Shown one piece after another: positions 469 through 62,461 of a DNA stretch of 64,000 nt. The translations under genes were made by a program, and so were the position numbers. The stretch spans positions 1,488,001 through 1,552,000 of the forward strand of contig OZ024764.1 in the NCBI GenBank assembly GCA_964016885.1, in the 5' to 3' direction. Numbering within the stretch: the stretch's first letter is position 1; every line of letters begins with the position of its first letter. The notes beneath the pieces are model-generated. The model was not told the origin of the DNA and did no database searches. It worked only from the letters and a program-made list of their open reading frames with translations. The stretch comes from Eledone cirrhosa. Lineage: Eukaryota.

Positions 469-1122
469 AAATATTGTTATACTTGGGGAGGGTCATATTT
501 GTGTAATATTGCCAGAATTAATAACAGAACACACTCACTAAGGGAAGTATAAATAAATAGATAAATAAATAAATAAATACATACACAAGCACAATAACAA
601 CAAACACATATAAACACACACTAGTAAAGATAGAATACATTAATCAATACACAGTCACCCAATCACGAACACACATCAAACAAAACACTATACACACACC
701 CAAACGCATGCGTAAAGAAGACAAAATAAAATAAAATAAACTAATAAATAAATATATAAACAGACTAAATAAAGATGGCGTAGAAAATACAATGCAACGG
801 GAGGAATCTATAGCACCACTGACGATGTTGCAGATGTGCAACGAAAGAACTTTGATAAACTATATATATATGTGTTTGTGTCTATATTGTATCTGTATTA
901 TTTTTGACCGTTGGTCAGTCAATGGCAACATTGAGGACCGAATAAATTAGATTACCGATATAAAAGACACAGAAGCGAAAAGCGAAAACCAACCAAGCAG
1001 TGAGTGTGTTCTGTTATTAATTCTGGCAATATTACACAAATATGACCCTCCCCAAGTATAACAATATTTGTTTCGACACACGATTTCATATAAAAAACCT
1101 CGCAAATCTAATTCATCGCCGT
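469..1122 (+). mobile_element. Penelope-like element remnant: pseudo-LTR, ORF-start tail and a short inverted copy
   Basis: 469-539 is the reverse complement of 999-1069. The tail encodes [28 protein letters not shown], homologous to [28 protein letters not shown] at 59912-59996. Contains an HHR; flanked by (TA)n. Confidence 0.85.
814..857 (+). ncRNA. Minimal type I hammerhead ribozyme
   Basis: CUGACGA-U-GUUGCA(GAUG)UGCAAC-GAAA-GAAC-UU. Stem II is a perfect 6 bp; stem I is only partly paired. Confidence 0.75.
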
Positions 1123-1149
1123 TATATATATATATTTATATACCCGACC

Positions 1150-2655: not shown

Positions 2656-4093
2656 CCACTTTACAGTGTGGACTGGGAGCCTTTTTACTGTGTCTCCTAC
2701 ATGACCACTTTACAGTGTGGACTGGGAGTCTTTTTACTGTGTCTCCTACATGACCACTTTACAGTGTGGACTGGGAGTCTTTTTACTGTGTCTCCTACAT
2801 GACCACTTTACAGTGTGGACTGGGAGTCTTTTTACTGTGTCTCCTACACGACCACTTTACAATGTGGACTGGGAGCCTTTTTACCGTGTCTCCTACATGA
2901 CCACTTTACAGTGTGGACTGGGAGCCTTTTTACTGAGTCTCCTACATGACCACTTTACAGTGTGGACTGGGAGCCTTTTTACTGTGTCTCCTACATGACC
3001 ACTTTACAGTGTGGACTGGGAGCCTTTTTACTGTGTCTCCTACATGACCACCTTACAGTGAGGACTGGGAGCCTTTTTACTGTGTCTCCTACATGACCAC
3101 TTTACAGTGTGGACTGGGAACCTTTTTACTGTGTCTCCTACATGACCACTTTACAGTGTGGACTGGGAACCTTTTTACTGTGTCTCCTACACGACCACTT
3201 TACAGTGTGGACTGGGAGCCTTTTTACTGTGTCTCCTACACAACCACCTTACAGTGTGGACTGGGAGCCTTTTTACTGTGTCTCCTACATGACCACCTTA
3301 CAGTGTGGATTGGGAGCCTTTTTACTGTGTCTCCTACACAACCACCTTACAGTGTGGACTGGGAGCCTTTTCACCGTGTCTCCTACATGACCACTTTACA
3401 GTGTAGACTGGGAGCCTTTTTACTGTGTCTCCTACATGACCACTTTACAGTGTGGACTGGGAGCCTTTTTACTGTGTCTCCTACATGACCACTTTTCAGT
3501 GTGGACTGGGAGCCTTTTTACCCTGTCTCCTACATGACCACCTTACAGTGTGGACTGGGAGCCTTTTTACTGTGTCTCCTACATGACCACTTTACAGTGT
3601 GGACTGGGAGCCTTTTTACCATGTCTCCTACATGACCACTATACAGTGTGGACTGGGAACCTTTTTACCGTGTCTCCTACATGACCACTTTACAGTGTGG
3701 ACTGGGAGCCTTTTTACTGTGTCTCCTACATGACCACTTTACAGTGTGGACTGGGAGCCTTTTTACCATGTCTCCTACATGACCACTTTACAGTGGACTG
3801 GGAACCTTTTTACCATGTCTCCTACATGACCACTATACAGTGTGGACTGGGAACCTTTTTACCGTGTCTCCTACATGACCACTTTACAGTGTGGACTGGG
3901 AGCCTTTTTACTGTGTCTCCTACATGACCACTTTACAGTGTGGACTGGGAGCCTTTTTACCATGTCTCCTACATGACCACTATACAGTGTGGACTGGGAA
4001 CCTTTTTACCGTGTCTCCTACATGACCACTTTTCAGTGTGGACTGGGAGCCTTTTTACTGTGTCTCCTACATGACCATTCTATAGTGTGGACT
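2656..4093. repeat. 49-bp minisatellite, ~29 copies, growing out of a - strand SINE 3' end (2498-2660)
   Basis: Unit ccactttacagtgtggactgggagcctttttactgtgtctcctacatga, period 49; homologous to the SINE internal module. Confidence 0.95.
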
Positions 4094-16297: not shown

Positions 16298-16361
<64 letters not shown>

Positions 16362-16802
16362 GAAGTTATATTTAATTTGTTGGGATACAACAAGCAAATA
16401 TTTTTATAACTGATATAAAGTACTCAACAAATTTTTGGAGTAAAAATACAATATATTAACAAATGGAAACTATATTTATAAAACCATATTTATTTTTCTT
16501 TTCTTTTCTTTTCTTTTCTTTTCTTTTCTTTTCTTTTCTTTTCTTTTCTTTTCTTTTCTTTTCTTTTCTTTTCTTTTCCTTCTTTGGGTTTGCTCTTTCT
16601 TTCTGCTTTTTCTTTCTCCTTTTCTTTTTTCCCCTATTCCAACGGCTTAATTTAAATGTACGGGATTTAAACCTCTCCGACACTAATTTGCATAATAGAC
16701 CAATAATAAAATTATAACCCCACTATCCGGGAGCTTCCAACAGACATGGTCGCATTCTTTTAAGGGTATGTCAATATTTGTTTATAAAACTGATCTATAT
16801 TA

Positions 16803-16867
16803 TATTTTATCTGATGAAAGCGCACCATAATTTGCTTTGGTGTCCTTGAAATATGTATAATGAAATA
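16803..16867 (+). ncRNA. Hammerhead ribozyme in a short inverted-arm element, 16359-16912
   Basis: UAUUUUAU-CUGAUGA-AAG..CACCA(loop)UGGUG..CUU-GAAA-UAUGUA-UA/AUGAAAUA; 8-bp stem I. Confidence 0.85.
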
Positions 16868-17099
16868 AATATGGTTTTATAAATATAGTTTCCATTTGTT
16901 AATATATTGTATATATATATATATATTTACTTAAGGTAAATATTGGTGCAATTCAATTGAAGCACTCAACATACTTTTTCCCCATAGGAGTGACGGAGTA
17001 TATTTAGAATAAGAAAATGCGAAGTAGTTTCAGATGTTAAAGTCCTTTAATGATAATGCTGTGATACATATTTCAATGACAGTGGCCACACTCTTTGGT

Positions 17100-30000: not shown

Positions 30001-30106
30001 CAAATGATATTGTGACTTGCAACTCACATCTCGTGTATATATATATATACATATGTTTATATATATATACATACATAAATACGTAAAATGATGATGATGA
30101 TATATG

Positions 30107-30153
<47 letters not shown>

Positions 30154-30326
30154 GTAGGAGGTGAGTTTTATTGTAGTACAATAAAGCAATGCAGATATCG
30201 GATAAGAAGCACTCTACAGTTTGTGGGACTGGAGTATGCATAATATAAGATCAAAAGATGGTTAAAGGAGTTCCATGTATTTTATTATGCGCATTCAAAT
30301 ACGTAAAATGATGATGATGATGATGA

Positions 30327-30371
<45 letters not shown>

Positions 30372-30435
30372 TAGATATGTTGATTTAAAACTGCACTATC
30401 AACAAGTGTTTTTTAGCCTTCATATCATGTTCTCC

Positions 30436-30506
30436 TGTTTTATCTGATGAAAACACAAATATTATTGTTTGATGATGTTTGTTTTTGAAATGCGCATAAT
30501 AAAATA
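30436..30506 (+). ncRNA. Hammerhead ribozyme in a short inverted-arm element, 30153-30548
   Basis: UGUUUUAU-CUGAUGA-long stem II-GAAA-UGCGCA-UA/AUAAAAUA; 8-bp stem I; palindromic stem III; 30241-30296 is an inverted copy of 30487-30545. Confidence 0.88.
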
Positions 30507-30541
30507 TATGGAACTCCTTTAACCATCTTTTGATCTTATAT

Positions 30542-30627
<86 letters not shown>

Positions 30628-30674: not shown

Positions 30675-30713
30675 ATGTATATATATATATATACATATAT
30701 GTATATGTATATA

Positions 30714-31994
30714 TATTGTTATACTTTGGGAGGGTCATGTTGCCAATAAGAAACACATGCACCAGTTGCTTTCACTTCAATTTATTATAATAAATTTATA
30801 AATTTAGGAATTTATAAATTTCCGGTTGGTTGGTTGGTTCCACAACCAGATGGTTGTTTATATATTGTCAAAGTTCTTTCGTCACACATTCTGTGACCTC
30901 TTCAGTGACTGAGGATTCTTTTCTTTGTTTTTGTGCCTCTCCTTTGTTCTGTCCTACGCCATCTTGTTTGTGTGTGTGTGTTGTCTGCGCATGCGCCACA
31001 TCCGGGTGTCTGTGTGTGTTTATATTCGTTTATTTATTTGTTTATTTACATGTTATTGGTTGGTTGTTTGTTCTATGTACCTGTGTGTTTTCATTTTGTC
31101 CTTAATTGTAAGTTGTGATGTTGCTGTTCTACTCATGTTTTCTATTTAATTTTTGTTGTAATTCTTTTATGTTTATTGCCTCTGTGATTTGTCTAAACAT
31201 TGCGTCTTTTCTGTGTGTAGATTCTATTTTTATTTCTATGTTCTCTAATTTACCCGTATGTTCTATTTTAGCATGTTGGTAGAGTACAGATGATTCTTTA
31301 CTATCTTGAAGATCTCGCCAGTGTTCATTTATCCGTTCCCCTACACTACGAGCTGTATACCATGAGTTTATTCTATTAGCCTTATTCCTAGTTCTTTCTA
31401 TTCTATTCCAAAATTTGCTCCTATACAAGGGGCAGGTCCCATTTGTGTCATTATTTACCATTTTTTCCCATTTCGTTCTGGCTCCTCTATACACTCTGAT
31501 TTTATCTCTCTGATTGTAACCAGAGAACTGCATACGGTGGATGAAGTGTTGTATGTGTCTCTCTAGTTCTTCGGGGTTGCACATGCGGGACACGTTTCTC
31601 ATCACCCGTACCAAATCCGCAATCAGTATGTTGATTTTGGTGTGGTCCTAAACAGCTGAGTTTCGGTGGATCAAATATTTGGAAGTCATGGGTTTGGCAT
31701 AATGGGAATGGAGGATTTGTTTTTTGTTATTAATGGTATCTAACCAGAGCTCTGTGTCTAGTACAGGTAATCGATGGTTGGGGTGTTTGCTTGGGTAGTC
31801 TATAGTAACTCTAATACTCTGGTGGATAGAGTTAGCTATTTGCTGGATGCTTTCCATGGTGTTTTTCTCTAATTCCTGACTGTTCTCTAGTGGGGGTGTT
31901 TTAACTACGATGTTTATATCATCAACGTAGCGGGAGTACATTATCAGGGTTAAGGGGTCTTCTAATTGTTCTTTAAGTTTAAGTCTACTGTCCC
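30714..31994 (-). mobile_element. Decayed, 5'-truncated Penelope-like copy of the same family as the palindrome
   Basis: YSRYVDD, HYAKPMTSK and RMQFSGY present; ~300-bp deletion at ~31356 removes the Cys-rich and GIY-YIG motifs; pseudo-LTR at 30714-31100. Confidence 0.92.
30866..30910 (-). ncRNA. Minimal hammerhead ribozyme in the pseudo-LTR
   Basis: GUCA-CUGAAGA-G-GUCACA..UGUGAC-GAAA-GAAC-UU/UGAC. Confidence 0.85.
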
Positions 31995-32164
31995 AAACAA
32001 AGCGAGCATTATAATAAATGTTCGGTAAACTGATACGTGCATATATATATGTGTGCATGTATGTATATATATATACATACTACTGTACGCCTGTATACAT
32101 ATATGTATGTACGTATACATACATAATACTTCAATTTAATGTATATATATATATATATGTATGT

Positions 32165-47286: not shown

Positions 47287-47730
47287 ATTGTTTCTACTTT
47301 TGGCACAAGGCCAGTAATTACTCCAGTACATTACTGGTACTTTATTTTATCAACCCCAATACATTACTGGTACTTTATTTTATCAACTCCAGTGCATTAC
47401 TGGTACTTTATTTTATCAACCCCAATACATTACTGGTACTTTATTTTATCAACCCCAGTGCCTTACTGGTACTTTATTTTATCAACCCAAATGCATTACT
47501 GGTACTTTATTTTATCAACCCCAGTGCATTACTGGTACTTTATTTTATCAACCCCAGTGCATTACTGGTACTTTATTTTATCAACCCCAGTCTATTACTG
47601 GTACTTTATTTTATCGACCCCGTAAGGATGAAAGGCAAAGTGAACCTCGGCGGGATTTGAACTCAGAATGGCAAGGGCCGTAACTCTATGCTGGAAAGCA
47701 TGGCATCCGACTCTATACCGATACTGCCAA
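47287..47730 (-). mobile_element. Second-family tRNA SINE with an internal 33-bp array
   Basis: Matches 60038-60222 in reverse; unit cattactggtactttattttatcaaccccagtg, ~9 copies. Confidence 0.88.
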
Positions 47731-47967
47731 ATAATAAACAACCTTCGGCCTCCAGGACTCATGGTAGATCTTTGAGACTTATTTTATGAAAAAAGTAGGG
47801 TCTTCGACACCGGGAAATAGGGTAATGGTAATTTCAATGGGGAAAATTGATTTGTAAACCTCCATACTTCCTGAGATTCACCAACACTACACCTGATATT
47901 CCCCCCCCCCCCTCCATACACATGCATGTATCTGTGTGTATTTAATGACTCATACACTGTTCATATT

Positions 47968-48453
47968 CCTGAGTTCAAATCCCGCCGAGGTTAACTTTGC
48001 TTTTCATCCTTACGGGGTCGATAAAATAAAGTACCAGTAATGCACTGGGGTTGATAAAATAAAATAAAGTACCAGTAATGCACTGAGGTTGATAAAATAG
48101 AATAAAGTACCAGTAATGCATTGGAGTTGATAAAATAAAGTACCAGTAATGCATTGGGGTTGATAAAATAAAGTACCAGTAATAGACTGGGGTTGATAGA
48201 ATAAAGTACCAGTAATGTACTGGGGTTGATAAAATAAAGTACCAGTAATGCACTGGGGTTGATAAAATAAAGTACCAGTAATGCATTGGGGTTGATAGAT
48301 TAAAGTACCAGTAATGCATTGGGGTTGATAGAATAAAGTACCAGTAATGCATTGGGGTTGATAAAATAAAGTACCAGTAATGCAGTAATAAAATAAAGTA
48401 CCAGTAATGCACTGGGGTAATTGCTGGCCTTGTGCCAAAAGTAGAAACAATTA
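47968..48453 (+). mobile_element. 5'-truncated second-family SINE with an internal 33-bp array
   Basis: Begins at the B box ctgagttcaaatcc; ~12 units. Confidence 0.88.
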
Positions 48454-55395: not shown

Positions 55396-55870
55396 CATCA
55401 TCATCATCATCGTTTAACGTCCGTGTTCCACGCTTGCATGGGTTTGGACGGGAGTTTTCCCACTTGAAGCAAGAGTGGTTGTCTTGCTCGCATAGGACTG
55501 TCTGGCGGGTTTTCTACAGTTGAATGCCCTTCCTAACACCAACCACATTTACAGTGTGGGGCTGGGAGGTTTTTACCGTGTTGCCTACACGGCCACATTA
55601 CAGCGTGGACTGTCTGGCAGGTTTTCTACAGCTGGATGACCTTCCTAACACCAACCACGTTTACAGTGTGGGGCTGGGAGGTTTTTACTGTGTTGCCTAC
55701 ACGGCCACATTACAGCGTGGACTGTCTGGCGGGTTTTCTACAGCTGGATGCCCTTCCTAACACCAACCACGTTTACAGTGTGGGACTGGGACGTTTTTAC
55801 CGTGTTGCCTACACGGCCACATTACAGCGTGGATTGTGTGTTTTTTTTGTCGTGACACCTACACGATCTC
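55396..55870 (-). mobile_element. SINE-related fragment with a 112-bp unit, 3 copies
   Basis: Matches 10598-10907 in reverse. Confidence 0.8.
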
Positions 55871-56088
55871 ATTTGTTTCGGCCTGGATTATATAATATAT
55901 AATATATAATATATTATATATAATATATAATATTGTTATACTTTGGGAGGGTCATGTTGCCAATAAGAAACACACGCACCAGTTGCTTTCACTTCAATTT
56001 AATTTATTATATATTTATAAATTTACAAATTTATAAATTTCTGGTTGGTTGGTTGGTTCCACAACCAGATAGTTGTTTATATATATAT

Positions 56089-56133
56089 AGTCATAGTTCT
56101 TTCGTCACACACTCTGTGACCTCTTCAGTGACT
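56089..56133 (-). ncRNA. Minimal type I hammerhead ribozyme, left arm
   Basis: Reverse complement of 59735-59779. Confidence 0.9.
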
Positions 56134-56438
56134 GGGGATTTCTTTCTTCGTTTCTGTGCCTTTCCTTTCTTCTATCCTACGCCATTTTGTTTGTGTGTGG
56201 GTTGCGTGCTCAGTTTACGCATGCGCCACATCCGGGTGTCTGTGTGGGTTTGTGTTCATTTTTCTATTTTTCTATTTATATTTTTCTATTTGTTTGTTTA
56301 TTTATTTATTTATTGTTGGTTGGTTGTTTGTTCTATGTGTGTGTGTGTTTTCATTTTGTCTTGTGTGTGTTTTCATTTTGTGTGTGTTTTCAATTGTAAG
56401 TTGTTTGTTCTATGTGTGTGTGTGTTTTCATTTTGTCC

Positions 56439-57872
56439 TTAATTGTAAGTTGTGATGTTGCTGTTCCACTCATATTTTCTATTTAATTTTGGTTTTAATT
56501 CTTTTATGCTTACTGCCTCTGTAATTTGCCTAAACATTGCGTCTTTCTTGTGTGTGGATTCTATTTTTATTTCTATGCTCTCTAATTTACCCCTGTGTTC
56601 TATCTTAGCATGTTGGTAGAGCACAGATGATTCTTTATTATCTTGGAGGTCTCGCCAGTGTTCATTTATTCGTTCCCCTATACTACGAGCTGTCTCACCT
56701 ATGTACACTATATTTTTGTTTCTATATTGTCCTTCAGTACATCTTATGCTATATACTACATTTCTAGTTTTACAGTTAATATGGGGGCTTATTTTACAGG
56801 TTATACATTTCTTATCTATACATGAGGGTCTTTGGAACGGGTATGTCTTGCTAATAAGTGTTTTTACGGAGGTACCAGGTCTTTCTACTATCTTAATATT
56901 GAGATTATGTTTCTTTAGGGCCCTTCTAAATTTGTAGGCTAGTTCGCCTCTAGGGGTTGTATTGATGAACATTACACTCTGGTATTTATTGCTATCATAC
57001 CATGAGTTTATTCTATTGGCCTTGTTCTTAGTTCTTTCTATTCTATTCCAAAATTTGCTCCTATACAAGGGGCAGGTCCCATTTATGTCATTATTTACCA
57101 TTTTTTCCCATTTGGTTCTGGCTCCTTTATACACTCTGATTCTATCTCTCTGATTGTAGCCAGAGAACTGCATACGGTGGATGAAGTGTTGTATGTGTCT
57201 CTCTAGTTCTTCGGGGTTGCACATGCGGGACACATTTCTCATCACCCGTACCAAATCCGCAATCAGTATGTTGATTTTGGTATGGTCCGAAATGGCCGAG
57301 TTTCGGTGGATCAGATGTTTGGAAGTCATGGGTTTGGCATAATGGGAATGGAGGATTTGTTTTTGGTTGTTAATTGTATCTAACCAGAGCTCTGTGTCTA
57401 GTACAGGTAATCGATGGTTGGGGTGTCTACTTGGGTAGTCTATAGTAACTCTAATGCTCTGGTGGATGGAGTTTGCTATTTGCTGGATGCTTTCCATTGT
57501 GTTTTTCTCTAGTTCCTGACTGTTCTTTAGTGGGGGTGTCTTAACTACGATGTTTATATCATCTACGTAGCGGGAGTACATTATCAGGGTTAAGCTGTCT
57601 TCTAATTGTTCATTAAGTTTTTGTTTAAGTCTACTGTCCCACCATACCATGAATAAGTTAGCTATGTTGCCTGCAATGCTAACACCAATGGCTGCTCCTT
57701 CCTCTTGGGCATATGTTTTACCATTAAATTTGAACATATGTTCCTTAAGGGTTAATTTTATGCTGGCCCCTACCGCATGTGCAATCATTTTCTTCAGTTC
57801 ATCGTGGTTTTCGGGTGTCCGTATGGCTCTGGTCCACCCGTTCCATCTAACTGTGTGGGTTTTCTTGGCCAT
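56439..57872 (-). CDS. Penelope-like RT (C-terminal half) + GIY-YIG endonuclease, N-terminally truncated
   Basis: QEEGAAIG, RYVDD, CIDKKCITC, NVVYSIRC, VYIGETAR; the frame is open to the palindrome centre and RT motif A is missing. Confidence 0.9.
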   Translation of the reverse strand: MAKKTHTVRWNGWTRAIRTPENHDELKKMIAHAVGASIKLTLKEHMFKFNGKTYAQEEGAAIGVSIAGNIANLFMVWWDSRLKQKLNEQLEDSLTLIMYSRYVDDINIVVKTPPLKNSQELEKNTMESIQQIANSIHQSIRVTIDYPSRHPNHRLPVLDTELWLDTINNQKQILHSHYAKPMTSKHLIHRNSAISDHTKINILIADLVRVMRNVSRMCNPEELERHIQHFIHRMQFSGYNQRDRIRVYKGARTKWEKMVNNDINGTCPLYRSKFWNRIERTKNKANRINSWYDSNKYQSVMFINTTPRGELAYKFRRALKKHNLNIKIVERPGTSVKTLISKTYPFQRPSCIDKKCITCKISPHINCKTRNVVYSIRCTEGQYRNKNIVYIGETARSIGERINEHWRDLQDNKESSVLYQHAKIEHRGKLESIEIKIESTHKKDAMFRQITEAVSIKELKPKLNRKYEWNSNITTYN

Positions 57873-57995
57873 TGAGGTAATGGTAGGTGGTCTGCCTCTT
57901 GCTGGTCTTGTAGGGCACAGGTTGCACAGGTTGCTAACCTTAGCAACCTGTGCCCTACAAGACCAGCAAGAGGCAGACCACCTACCATTACCTCA

Positions 57996-59429
57996 ATGGC
58001 CAAGAAAACCCACACAGATAGATGGAACGGGTGGACCAGAGCCATACGGACACCCGAAAACCACGATGAACTGAAGAAAATGATTGCACATGCGGTAGGG
58101 GCCAGCATAAAATTAACCCTTAAGGAACATATGTTCAAATTTAATGGTAAAACATATGCCCAAGAGGAAGGAGCAGCCATTGGTGTTAGCATTGCAGGCA
58201 ACATAGCTAACTTATTCATGGTATGGTGGGACAGTAGACTTAAACAAAAACTTAATGAACAATTAGAAGACAGCTTAACCCTGATAATGTACTCCCGCTA
58301 CGTAGATGATATAAACATCGTAGTTAAGACACCCCCACTAAAGAACAGTCAGGAACTAGAGAAAAACACAATGGAAAGCATCCAGCAAATAGCAAACTCC
58401 ATCCACCAGAGCATTAGAGTTACTATAGACTACCCAAGTAGACACCCCAACCATCGATTACCTGTACTAGACACAGAGCTCTGGTTAGATACAATTAACA
58501 ACCAAAAACAAATCCTCCATTCCCATTATGCCAAACCCATGACTTCCAAACATCTGATCCACCGAAACTCGGCCATTTCGGACCATACCAAAATCAACAT
58601 ACTGATTGCGGATTTGGTACGGGTGATGAGAAATGTGTCCCGCATGTGCAACCCCGAAGAACTAGAGAGACACATACAACACTTCATCCACCGTATGCAG
58701 TTCTCTGGCTACAATCAGAGAGATAGAATCAGAGTGTATAAAGGAGCCAGAACCAAATGGGAAAAAATGGTAAATAATGACATAAATGGGACCTGCCCCT
58801 TGTATAGGAGCAAATTTTGGAATAGAATAGAAAGAACTAAGAACAAGGCCAATAGAATAAACTCATGGTATGATAGCAATAAATACCAGAGTGTAATGTT
58901 CATCAATACAACCCCTAGAGGCGAACTAGCCTACAAATTTAGAAGGGCCCTAAAGAAACATAATCTCAATATTAAGATAGTAGAAAGACCTGGTACCTCC
59001 GTAAAAACACTTATTAGCAAGACATACCCGTTCCAAAGACCCTCATGTATAGATAAGAAATGTATAACCTGTAAAATAAGCCCCCATATTAACTGTAAAA
59101 CTAGAAATGTAGTATATAGCATAAGATGTACTGAAGGACAATGTAGAAACAAAAATATAGTGTACATAGGTGAGACAGCTCGTAGTATAGGGGAACGAAT
59201 AAATGAACACTGGCGAGACCTCCAAGATAATAAAGAATCATCTGTGCTCTACCAACATGCTAAGATAGAACACAGGGGTAAATTAGAGAGCATAGAAATA
59301 AAAATAGAATCCACACACAAGAAAGACGCAATGTTTAGGCAAATTACAGAGGCAGTAAGCATAAAAGAATTAAAACCAAAATTAAATAGAAAATATGAGT
59401 GGAACAGCAACATCACAACTTACAATTAA
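57996..59429 (+). CDS. Penelope-like RT (C-terminal half) + GIY-YIG endonuclease, N-terminally truncated; possibly Nematis clade
   Basis: Mirror copy differing at 2 residues. The clade is inferred from HYxKPM-SK, KxNILxADLxRxMRNxS and RMQFSGY. Confidence 0.9.
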   Translation: MAKKTHTDRWNGWTRAIRTPENHDELKKMIAHAVGASIKLTLKEHMFKFNGKTYAQEEGAAIGVSIAGNIANLFMVWWDSRLKQKLNEQLEDSLTLIMYSRYVDDINIVVKTPPLKNSQELEKNTMESIQQIANSIHQSIRVTIDYPSRHPNHRLPVLDTELWLDTINNQKQILHSHYAKPMTSKHLIHRNSAISDHTKINILIADLVRVMRNVSRMCNPEELERHIQHFIHRMQFSGYNQRDRIRVYKGARTKWEKMVNNDINGTCPLYRSKFWNRIERTKNKANRINSWYDSNKYQSVMFINTTPRGELAYKFRRALKKHNLNIKIVERPGTSVKTLISKTYPFQRPSCIDKKCITCKISPHINCKTRNVVYSIRCTEGQCRNKNIVYIGETARSIGERINEHWRDLQDNKESSVLYQHAKIEHRGKLESIEIKIESTHKKDAMFRQITEAVSIKELKPKLNRKYEWNSNITTYN

Positions 59430-59734
59430 GGACAAAATGAAAACACACACACACATAGAACAAACAACTTACAATTGAAAACACACACAAAATGAAAACA
59501 CACACAAGACAAAATGAAAACACACACACACATAGAACAAACAACCAACCAACAATAAATAAATAAATAAACAAACAAATAGAAAAATATAAATAGAAAA
59601 ATAGAAAAATGAACACAAACCCACACAGACACCCGGATGTGGCGCATGCGCAAACTGAGCACGCAACCCACACACAAACAAAATGGCGTAGGATAGAAGA
59701 AAGGAAAGGCACAGAAACGAAGAAAGAAATCCCC

Positions 59735-59779
59735 AGTCACTGAAGAGGTCACAGAGTGTGTGACGAAAGAACTATGACT
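59735..59779 (+). ncRNA. Minimal type I hammerhead ribozyme, right arm
   Basis: AGUCA-CUGAAGA-G-GUCACA(GAGUG)UGUGAC-GAAA-GAAC-UA/UGACU; stems I and II perfect; predicted cut after 59774. Confidence 0.9.
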
Positions 59780-60037
59780 ATATATATATAAACAACTATC
59801 TGGTTGTGGAACCAACCAACCAACCAGAAATTTATAAATTTGTAAATTTATAAATATATAATAAATTAAATTGAAGTGAAAGCAACTGGTGCGTGTGTTT
59901 CTTATTGGCAACATGACCCTCCCAAAGTATAACAATATCGGTTTCAACACACGATTTCAGATAAAGAATCTTGCTAAACAAATTCAGAAACGAAATATAT
60001 AATATATTATATATAATATATAATATATAATATATAA

Positions 60038-60222
60038 GGCGGTGGATTGGCAGTATCGGTAGAGGGTCGGACGCCATGCTTTCCAGCATAGTTACGTCCC
60101 TTTACGATCTGAGTTCAAATCCCGCCGAGGTTGACTTTGCCTTTCATCCTTACGGGGTCGATAGAATAAAGTACCAGTAATGAACTGGGTAATTGCTGGC
60201 CTTGTGCCTAAAGTAGAAACAA
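60038..60222 (+). mobile_element. Second-family tRNA-derived SINE, full length
   Basis: A-box-like TGGCAGTATCGG, B box GAGTTCAAATC; copies at 61829-62011 (-) and 17500-17603. Confidence 0.88.
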
Positions 60223-60597
60223 ATATATAAACAGCAATTTCTCTGTCTGTCTGTCCGACAGTGGAAACACGTGCGTGCGTGCGAATGTTTTTTGCACACG
60301 CGTAGAGAGAGAGCGAGAGTGAAAGAAAGAGACAGACTACAAGAGGGGGATAGCGGGAGGGAGAGAGGGGGGGAATTGAGGAGTGCTACAGAAACATATA
60401 TACATTTCTCTGTGTGTGTAATATATATATATATACACACACACAGAAATATATATATATACACACAGAAATATATATACATTTCTGTGTGTGTAATATA
60501 TATATATATATATATACACACACAGAAATATATATACATTTCTGTGTGTGTAATATATATATATCAGAAAACCTCCCGATGGGCGGTTTTCTGTTAG
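60223..60597 (+). mobile_element. Non-autonomous Helitron-like element
   Basis: 3' hairpin cagaaaacc..ggttttctg followed by TTAG; the same end type ends in CTAG at 62461. Confidence 0.55.
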
Positions 60598-61734
60598 TCT
60601 ATATTACTAAAACAGAGAATGTCTGTCTGTCTGTCTGACCAATCACTAAAACTCAAGAACCACCCAACCGATTGTTTTCAAACTTTACACATGTAATACT
60701 TATGGTCCTATTGAGTGTTCTGAGCAAAAAAAATTTCAAATGTTCAATACCCAAGGGACCGCATTAGGCGATTTAGCGATCTCTCTCTCTTAGTCTTTCT
60801 CTTTTTAGATAGATACATTGATATGACGTTGCATCCTTATAATATCTGTCGACGCTGTGTATATATATATGTATATATAGTGTGTGTGTATATATATATA
60901 GTGTGTAACGTTTTTCAAAATATTTACTTCTGCGTTCACAGATTTATTTATTTTTAGTTTCAGAAGATCCCGTTAAGGGTGAAAGCAGCGATTCTTTGCT
61001 TAAACTTTAATCTGTTATTTTTATATATATATATATATATAATTATATATTCGTGTACAGATATTTTTGCATACACAATAACAAAATATAAACAAAAGTA
61101 TTTATTTCGCGATAAAGTATTGATTTTCTTTGAACCGAAAAAAAACCCCTGGTAATGTATCATTTCATATCATCATTTCATTTTACGTCCGCTTTTCCCT
61201 GCTTGCAAGGGTGGGACGGGAACTGATTCTGGCTTGATTTCTACAGCTGGATGCCCTTCCTAACACCAACCTCATTTACAGTGAGTGCTGGGTGCTTTTT
61301 TACCGTGGCACCTCCACGACCACTTTGCAGTGGAATGATAGGGACCCCAGTCCCTATCATCTCATTTCTACAGCTGAGTAAACTGGAGCAATGTGAAATA
61401 AAGTGTCTTGCTCAAGGAAACAACACATCAACCGGTCTGAGAATTGAACTCACAACCTTTCGATTGCAAGGCCAATGCTCTAACCACTAAGCCATGTGCC
61501 TCCGTATGACAAATTTTTTTTTATAAGCACAAAATGTAGACACCATCCCGAGGCCGAGGTATTCCGTACTTCTCTGTACTGTTGATTATATATTCGTGTA
61601 CAGATATTTTTGCATACACAATAACAAAATATAAACAAACGTATTTACTTCACGAGTCTCGAGAAGGATGAATATATATCAAATATATAAGAACCCTAGA
61701 GCAAATCCCGAGCAACGCCGGGCCATTCTGCTAG
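60598..61734 (+). mobile_element. Non-autonomous Helitron with a nested SINE (61173-61503, -)
   Basis: 5' TC-tatattactaaaac, (GTCT)n, 3' hairpin cccgagcaacgccggg, then CTAG|T. Confidence 0.8.
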
Positions 61735-61828
61735 TCATAACTATAATAAAGTAATGAGTGCGGGACTGTGTCCAGAATATATTTTTTTATCCCCTTAGTA
61801 AAATAAGTTGGATTACTTTGAATAAATA

Positions 61829-62011
61829 ATTGTTTCTACTTTAGGCACAAGGCCAGCAATTACCCAGTGCATTACTGGTACTTTATTTTATCGACCCCGT
61901 AAGGATGAAAGGCAAAGTCAACCTCGGCGGGATTTGAACTCAGATCGTAAAGGGACGTAACTCTGCTGGAAAGCATGGCGTCCGACCCTCTACCGATACC
62001 GCCAATCCACT
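61829..62011 (-). mobile_element. Second-family SINE
   Basis: Reverse complement of 60042-60222. Confidence 0.88.
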
Positions 62012-62021
62012 ACATAATTTA

Positions 62022-62461
62022 TCTACTAAATTTTGTAGCTGTTGATTAAACATAGATATTCTTATATATAATGATTGCTTATTTTAAGATTCACTTCTTT
62101 TAACATTTTCAAAGGTCAACACTTCCAGTTAGCGATGGTTTAAATAAACGTTTATATATTTCCGTCACTAATTTTCTCCTAATCCAGTTTATATATAATA
62201 TCATATTTGTTAAATGTATCATGGATTACATTACTGATTACATAAGACAGTGTAACACAGTCTCTCTTCAATTTCTGTGTATATTGTCAATTATGATTTT
62301 ATTTGATGTATCATATCTACATGTATATATACTTGTGTATAATATCAATATACACACTACACATGTATCATATCTACATGTATATATACTTGTGTATAAT
62401 ATCAATATACACACTACACTTGTTAGCAGAAAACCACCCTAAGCGTGGTTTTTTCTGCTAG
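62022..62461 (+). mobile_element. Non-autonomous Helitron-like element
   Basis: A|TCTACTA start; 3' hairpin agcagaaaaccac..gtggttttttctgct; CTAG|T end. Confidence 0.65.

What the first reader, a model, noticed from the sequence alone, without database searches (positions are those of the whole stretch)
55930..59996. 4-kb fold-back Penelope palindrome with a hairpin scar at the centre and a ~30-nt target duplication
Seen: two ~2-kb arms truncated at the same point inside the RT and joined head-to-head. The 17-nt spacer (57926-57942) holds a 9-nt duplication (acaggttgc) and an offset hairpin gcacaggttgctaa-cc-ttagcaacctgtgc. The arms differ at three positions at least (56217/59651, 56725/59143, 57850/58018). 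An irregular 28-nt TA-rich string is repeated exactly on both flanks. Known: Penelope-like elements often form tandem or inverted insertions and favour microsatellites. Inference: one insertion event in which the truncated cDNA snapped back and primed copying of itself, which would record the poorly understood second-strand step.
Basis: partly seen in the sequence, partly recalled or inferred. Interest (0 to 1): 0.8.

Follow-up and report, generated by a model that had tools for sequence, protein, structure and literature searches.

The report
Head-to-head Penelope retroelement insertion palindrome
Two nearly identical 2-kb tail ends of a Penelope-like jumping gene sit head to head between duplicated target DNA, likely made in one insertion when both cut ends started copying and one copy folded back on itself; it is a large, clean example of a known pattern.

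Summary
The sequence details are confirmed: 1996-bp arms (55930-57925 / 57943-59938) with three substitutions, a 17-nt centre (14-bp hairpin, 9-nt duplication) and a 28-33-nt direct repeat on both flanks. The element is a 5'-truncated Penelope-like retroelement (RT, C-terminal GIY-YIG, hammerhead motif); its closest named relatives are octopus proteins. Both outer ends lie in the start of the next tandem ORF (nt 26 and ~83), at sites reused by other copies in the window, matching the two RT start sites known in vitro for Poseidon. Best model (0.5): priming at both target nicks, bridged by snap-back of one cDNA. An inverted 5'-truncated copy with a one-sided tail is the typical Penelope arrangement, self-priming at such junctions was proposed in 2013, and this scan has found the pattern before on other genomes. 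Read support and the empty allele were not tested. Side finding: the RT family has a telomerase-length fingers insertion, not reported for C-terminal-endonuclease Penelopes in the paper I checked. Interest is low.

The parts
55901..55933 (+). Left copy of the target duplication (28-33 nt of a 7-bp TATATAA array 55889-55933 with one variant unit); the last 4 nt overlap the arm end
55930..57925 (-). Left (inverted, tail-less) arm, 1996 bp; carries the likely derived base at all 3 arm differences
57926..57942 (.). Asymmetric 17-nt centre, including the 9-nt duplication of 57917-57925
57924..57953 (.). Offset 14-bp hairpin with a 2-nt loop at 57938-57939 (inferred snap-back scar)
57943..59938 (+). 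Right (sense) arm, 1996 bp
57936..59429 (+). 5'-truncated ORF, open: RT motifs B'-E, thumb, C-x4-C-x2-C-x7-C linker, GIY-YIG endonuclease; truncated inside the long A-B' insertion
59430..59938 (+). Pseudo-LTR / 3' region shared by both arms
59735..59779 (+). Minimal type-I hammerhead motif (mirror copy at 56089-56133 on the - strand); predicted, not assayed
59913..59996 (+). First 28 codons of the next tandem ORF; the left-arm end equals nt 26, the tail end ~nt 83
59939..59995 (+). One-sided tail (55-58 nt, boundary blurred by microhomology), element-derived
59994..60026 (+). Right copy of the target duplication (array 59994-60037)

Best explanation
This is one recent insertion of a 5'-truncated Penelope-like element, likely made when the element's endonuclease nicked both strands of a TATATAA array about 30 nt apart, both 3' ends likely primed reverse transcription at the two family-fixed sites in the next tandem ORF (nt ~83 and nt 26), and one cDNA likely snapped back on itself to bridge the two. 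Shown in sequence: arms, centre hairpin, 9-nt duplication, tail, direct flank repeat, and both ends inside the ORF start. Inferred: the bottom-strand cDNA stopped near 57935, folded on a 2-3-nt inverted microhomology and grew a sense-polarity strand. That strand is complementary to the top-strand cDNA, so the two anneal wherever they meet, which gives a symmetric palindrome with canonical ends and needs no coincidence. The 9-nt duplication is a GC-guided realignment. How much of the left arm was RNA-templated and how much DNA-templated cannot be read from this copy.
For: Tail and pLTR end encode the ORF N-terminus: 11 of 17 differences from element 469-1125 fall on third codon positions, and an F/Y-N/D-T-R motif is shared with the N-termini of P0129, P0130 and L005. 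In vitro, Anolis Poseidon cuts and extends both strands and starts RT at two sites inside the ORF that delimit the tail (PMC11167929). The tail-less site is used by 3 of 3 related ends in the window: this left arm, 469 and 30713. Copy 30713-31995 has no inverted partner at its 5' junction, so the site can serve as a primary start. The junction ignores longer microhomologies. Insertion 16360-16912 (another family) has a short inverted arm carrying an ~85-nt tail and a long arm lacking it, so neither arm can be a copy of the other; its tail is homologous to that at 30156-30239 (0 of 500 shuffles). For snap-back: the 14-bp hairpin; a near-symmetric head-to-head junction inside the ORF in relative L009 (49-nt arm, 78-nt spacer; 1 of 15 loci); palindromes at PLE inverted junctions (PMC3846280); snap-back 5' junctions of R2 (PMC11371274).
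Against: All 3 substitutions appear derived on the left arm, which also holds the 9-nt duplication. That fits a wholly DNA-copied left arm better, but weakly (one-sided p = 1/8; polarity inferred from P0001 and copy 30713). The native sequence upstream of 57936 is unknown; the protein frame N-L-S-x-x-C-P in P0001 only suggests the loop bases are native. Copy 30713 is about 6-18% diverged with a 303-bp deletion, so it may have lost a partner. Insertion 30156-30544 is ambiguous: its tailed piece has its own ~80-nt flanking duplication. No reads, empty allele or genome-wide census were available. The 28-33-nt duplication is longer than the 8-10 bp in PMC3846280.
Confidence: 0.5

Rival explanations
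1. Pure fold-back: one cDNA from the right nick snapped back and was copied along its whole length. The copy was then cut or released at nt 26 of the ORF start, likely by the element's endonuclease, and joined to the left target end through ATAT.
For: Arms end within about 10 nt of each other; the hairpin loop is 2 nt; 3 of 3 substitutions and the duplication are on the tail-less arm. PMC8557442 ascribes the tail to endonuclease resolution; PMC3846280 proposes self-priming.
Against: It needs a separate mechanism to stop at the site that copy 30713 uses as a primary end. It cannot produce insertion 16360-16912, where each arm has sequence the other lacks. PMC11167929 maps the tail to two RT starts.
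Confidence: 0.3
2. The palindrome was not formed in this insertion step: it was copied from a source that was already palindromic, or one arm was duplicated afterwards by replication template switching, or two separate insertions hit the same array.
For: Microsatellite targets attract repeated insertions (30156-30544 may be two events). An earlier unchecked scan note reports a recurrent junction in another genome (e1-7415200).
Against: One duplication frames the whole unit; the arms are 99.85% identical and truncated together; a replication fold-back would be expected to carry the tail and flank too; the junction 28/33-mers are unique in the window.
Confidence: 0.13
3. Assembly or long-read fold-back artefact.
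For: Perfect long palindromes are a known artefact class (recalled); no read-level support was obtained.
Against: The two flanks are different and in direct orientation; only one arm has the family tail; the left arm ends at the family's canonical site; the arm differences are substitutions, not indels. A folded read would mirror the tail and the flank.
Confidence: 0.05

Closest known systems
Insertion units of endonuclease-bearing Penelope-like elements (inverted 5'-truncated copy plus one-sided tail; Pen2a_Av in PMC3846280; Fig. 2 legend of PMC8557442)
   Same: Head-to-head inverted truncated copy; tail on one side; pLTR and tail include the first codons of the ORF; palindrome at the inverted junction; target duplication; TA-rich target; hammerhead motif in the pLTR.
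   Different: Arms are 2 kb and symmetric deep in the RT, not about 200 bp; tail 55-58 nt against 30-40; duplication 28-33 nt against 8-10; no full-length copy in the unit.
Poseidon of Anolis carolinensis (PAc), in vitro (PMC11167929)
   Same: Two ends inside the ORF 5' part delimit the tail; AT-rich cleavage on both strands fits priming at both nicks.
   Different: Different clade (PAc belongs to Penelope/Poseidon, which lack the Zn-finger linker); start sites lie further into its ORF; joining of the cDNAs was not reconstituted in the parts I read.
Snap-back 5' junctions of R2-mediated insertions (PMC11371274) and L1 foldback junctions (PMC11702581)
   Same: The cDNA 3' end primes synthesis on itself, leaving antisense sequence at the 5' junction.
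   Different: Non-LTR elements; their antisense piece is not described as ending at a fixed element site; L1 foldbacks are rearrangements without a framing duplication.
Nematis clade of PLEs
   Same: C-terminal GIY-YIG with a short linker of the same cysteine spacing (C-x4-C-x2-C-x7-C-x4) as Nematis_C4 in Fig. S2 of PMC8557442.
   Different: RT motif A to B' spacing is 126-132 aa here, against about 60 in the canonical PLE rows of Fig. S1 (counted by hand); no tree against reference clades was possible.

Membership tests
Penelope-like elements, EN+ (C-terminal) | RT related to telomerase RT | tested here: met
   Model of homologue P0004 (pLDDT 90): the top 14 VIA rows are TERTs, best Z 15.3, rmsd 3.4, 266 aligned; Foldseek top 3 are TERTs. 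Window ORF hits RVT_1 at E 5e-5, below the Pfam cut-off.
Penelope-like elements, EN+ (C-terminal) | C-terminal GIY-YIG endonuclease with CCHH residues in the same ORF | tested here: met
   VVY...YIGET with two internal cysteines and conserved R, H, H, E, N; homologue P0022 hits PF01541 at E 2.5e-4, just under the cut-off (1 of 5 proteins); the window ORF itself had no GIY-YIG Pfam hit.
Penelope-like elements, EN+ (C-terminal) | pLTR containing the ORF start, from a tandem transcript | tested here: met
   ATG at 59913 opens 28 codons like the N-termini of P0129, P0130 and L005.
Penelope-like elements, EN+ (C-terminal) | Minimal hammerhead motif in the pLTR | tested here: met
   36 of 39 cells paired in 3 copies, 3 pairs with changes on both sides, 24 of 500 shuffles as high; architecture as in PMC4209133 passages. 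Rfam did not detect it. Activity untested.
Penelope-like elements, EN+ (C-terminal) | Inverted 5'-truncated copy and one-sided tail | tested here: met
Penelope-like elements, EN+ (C-terminal) | Target-site duplication proven by an empty allele | not tested
   Direct repeat present; the read-level step gave no result, and no genome is held.
Nematis clade | Short CX2-5CxxC linker before GIY-YIG | tested here: met
Nematis clade | No insertion between RT motifs A and B' (canonical spacing) | tested here: not met
   126-132 aa in 56 of 57 homologues that had both motifs, of 141 fetched.
Nematis clade | RT phylogeny groups with Nematis references | not testable with these tools
   No named reference proteins were available as session sequences.
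Naiad/Chlamys | N-terminal endonuclease, no canonical hammerhead | tested here: not met
   The endonuclease is C-terminal and a hammerhead motif is present.
Hydra clade | CCHH absent, CxCX5C linker, no IFD | tested here: not met
   Definition; motifs.

The most novel reading that the evidence does not exclude
The element belongs to an unnamed marine Penelope-like lineage that joins a telomerase-length fingers insertion to a C-terminal endonuclease. Its young insertions record a complete integration route: staggered nicks 30-80 nt apart, priming at both nicks from two fixed ORF sites, and snap-back bridging in place of ordinary second-strand synthesis.
Probability: 0.25. Interest if true: 0.5.

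Novelty: new member of a known kind. Interest (0 to 1): 0.22.

Why it matters
How Penelope-like elements finish integration and make inverted arms is still open (PMC8557442, PMC11167929). A young copy whose target carries a marker unit shows all three junctions to the base and suggests a model that reconciles the self-priming and two-start-site ideas. One locus cannot decide it, and the architecture is already described, so its value is as a data point for a genome-wide census. The long RT insertion could matter for PLE and telomerase RT evolution if a tree confirms a separate lineage.

Tried and rejected
No whole genome is held, so there was no census or empty-site search. The run search listed 14 runs, 11 holding part of 55840-62300 and 4 holding half or more of the words; none was laid, so they are no evidence. 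Relatives: none in viral contigs (0 of 3 stretches) or prokaryote genomes (0 of 18). Metagenomes gave 15 short loci from 168 stretches; 2 of 15 show inverted arms (L009, L014) and 13 do not; these contigs are 1-3.4 kb. Rfam gave 4 chance-level hits and no hammerhead. The first structure string for the hammerhead was out of register and was replaced. Sequence search of PDB gave only bacterial RTs (3 hits). Motif terms of this family were absent from the one supplement file of PMC8557442 (0 hits for 3 motifs). The ESM Atlas gave only generic PLE-type clusters. No look-alike by sequence or place in earlier scan notes. The tails of 16360-16912 and 30156-30544 show no clear shared ORF. Rejected: MITE or DNA foldback element (RT ORF, one-sided tail); L1-type twin priming (its inverted pieces do not overlap in the RNA, recalled, whereas these arms cover the same sequence).
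Full report
OBSERVATION. The palindrome is in the assembled sequence as described. Arms 55930-57925 and 57943-59938 (1996 bp) differ at 3 positions: 56217/59651, 56725/59143 and 57850/58018. The 17-nt centre holds a 9-nt duplication and a hairpin of 14 bp around the 2-nt loop 57938-57939. The flanks share a direct repeat of 28 nt, or 33 with junction microhomology (55901-55933 = 59994-60026), unique in the window. It is part of a 7-bp TATATAA array with one variant unit, present once in each flank. Independent arrays would share such a variant with probability 0.03-0.14 depending on the assumed variant rate. The predicted empty site is one array of 8 units (inference).

IDENTITY. The right arm holds an open frame from 57936 to 59429 with RT motifs B' to E, a cysteine linker and a GIY-YIG domain. 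It has 165 homologues at E up to 0.001 among 4425 candidates; the best is an Octopus vulgaris protein (P0001, 66%), and an O. bimaculoides protein is also listed. So the host is likely an octopus; young Penelope-like insertions are reported in O. vulgaris (336 insertions, PMC13282606 passages). A model of homologue P0004 matches telomerase RTs best. The 3' region carries a minimal hammerhead motif at 59735-59779, kept in copies at 30905 and 819 with 3 compensatory pairs. The tail is element sequence: it aligns with the tail of element 469-1125 (0 of 500 shuffles). With the last 26 nt of the arm it encodes the start of the next tandem ORF from ATG 59913; 11 of 17 differences between the two families are at third positions, and the peptide resembles the N-termini of P0129, P0130 and L005 (resemblance judged by eye, blastp-short gave no significant hit). 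The template was therefore a tandem transcript, and both outer ends lie inside its second ORF.

CONTEXT. The same 64 kb holds three more hammerhead-bearing scraps with inverted arms. At 469-1125: a 71-bp tail-less arm, 100% identical, tail on the long arm. At 16360-16912: a 50-bp arm, 100% identical, ~85-nt tail on the short arm. At 30156-30544: a 64-bp arm, ambiguous because its tailed piece has its own ~80-nt flanking duplication. A plain truncated copy at 30713-31995 ends at the tail-less site in (TA)n. Of 15 related metagenome loci, L009 shows a head-to-head junction inside the ORF (49-nt inverted piece, 78-nt spacer, cut by the contig end; a chimera is not excluded) and L014 an inverted terminal repeat; 13 show neither. 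Inverted arms are thus routine for these elements; only the length and symmetry stand out here.

MECHANISM. Symmetric truncation and the hairpin point to snap-back of a cDNA 3' end. The left outer end, however, is element-directed: it is the site used by 3 of 3 related ends in the window, while 22 of 2054 arm positions offer 6 nt or more of microhomology to the target against 5 at the real junction. Anolis Poseidon cleaves and extends both target strands, and its two RT starts delimit the tail (PMC11167929). I favour a combined model (0.5): both nicks prime on RNA; one cDNA snaps back; its sense-polarity extension anneals to the other cDNA; repair fills a duplication of about 30 nt. Pure fold-back with cleavage at the tail-less site (0.3) is the limit case. 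It is helped by the three substitutions looking derived on the left arm: P0001 has an acidic residue and a cysteine as in the right arm, 0 of 22 aligned homologues have the left arm's V, and copy 30713 matches the right arm at 59651. With three sites this is weak. If all three arose after insertion, 0.15% divergence gives at most about 0.2 million years on the calibration in PMC13282606 (0.09 = 25 million years; hand arithmetic, ignoring arm conversion). An artefact is unlikely (0.05), because a folded read would mirror the tail and flank. Read support and the empty allele remain untested.

COMPARISON. PMC8557442 calls an adjacent inverted 5'-truncated copy with a one-sided 30-40-bp tail typical. 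PMC3846280 reports 8-10-bp duplications, a pLTR plus tail covering the first 12-22 codons, and infers self-priming from palindromes at head-to-head junctions. Snap-back junctions are described for R2 and foldbacks for L1. Earlier scan notes from other genomes describe the same pattern (unchecked AI notes, not used as support). Differences here: 2-kb symmetric arms, a longer tail and a longer duplication. Eight paper searches listed no description of this octopus family's junctions or of the combined model; subscription papers, including Arkhipova 2006 and Evgen'ev and Arkhipova 2005, were not seen.

SIDE FINDING. Motif A to B' spacing is 126-132 aa in 56 of the 57 homologues where both motifs were found, of 141 fetched. 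Counted by hand from Fig. S1 of PMC8557442, it is about 58 in Penelope, 80 in one Naiad and 115 in human TERT. That paper says canonical C-terminal-endonuclease PLEs lack the insertion. Whether the insertion is homologous to the TERT IFD, and which clade this family belongs to, was not tested.

PAPERS SEEN. PMC3846280: parts 1-4 of 5 (all main text). PMC11167929: parts 1-2 of 4 (main text, start of methods). PMC8557442: passages, sections 6, 11, 12 and 15, a search of its supplement and part 54 of 59. PMC11371274, PMC11702581, PMC8969392, PMC13282606, PMC4209133 and bioRxiv 10.64898/2026.07.22.740005: passages only. Figures were not available, so whether Fig. 2 of PMC3846280 shows multi-kb symmetric palindromes is unknown. 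The NRF1, YY1 and SINE labels are recalled, from no call.

VERDICT. Real in the assembly, likely real in the genome, and a new member of a known kind. Interest 0.22.

Noticed in passing
P0001, P0004 and relatives; window 57936-58160: The RT family has a conserved 126-132-aa spacing between motifs A and B' (56 of 57), telomerase-length, together with a C-terminal GIY-YIG and a Nematis-type linker; possibly an unnamed PLE lineage. The palindrome's truncation lies inside this insertion.
   Followed up: partly
window 469-1125: Related PLE family scrap: 71-bp perfect inverted arm, hammerhead motif at 819, ~55-nt tail, in (TA)n; same tail-less end as the main element.
   Followed up: yes
window 16360-16912: Second PLE-like family: 50-bp perfect inverted arm with an ~85-nt tail on the short arm, hammerhead motif at 16811; each arm has sequence the other lacks.
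   Followed up: partly
window 30074-30544: Relative of the 16360 element: tailed inverted piece 30156-30297 framed by an ~80-nt direct duplication, followed by a sense piece with a hammerhead motif at 30444; one complex event or two.
   Followed up: partly
window 30713-31995 (- strand): Older copy of the main family (94% in the RT part), 5'-truncated, with a 303-bp internal deletion, ending at the tail-less site.
   Followed up: yes
window 59642-59651 and ~59680-59689: GCGCATGCGC and AAAATGGCG motifs in the pLTR, kept in part in the 30713 copy and the 469 element; they resemble NRF1 and YY1 promoter sites (recalled). One arm difference hits the first motif.
   Followed up: no
window 63254: A further hammerhead-like motif, with no inverted partner found by the scan.
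   Followed up: no
window 60042-60229 and 61823-62010: Inverted pair of SINE-like repeats, 97% identical, 1.6 kb apart, right beside the insertion.
   Followed up: no
L009:1-176; L014:903-1095 and 2916-3090; L005: Metagenome relatives: a head-to-head junction inside the ORF (L009), an inverted terminal repeat (L014), and a unit with a hammerhead motif just before the ORF start and a 123-bp terminal overlap (L005).
   Followed up: partly
window 47287-48451: Inverted arrangement of a tandem repeat (about 335-bp arms, 91% identical).
   Followed up: no
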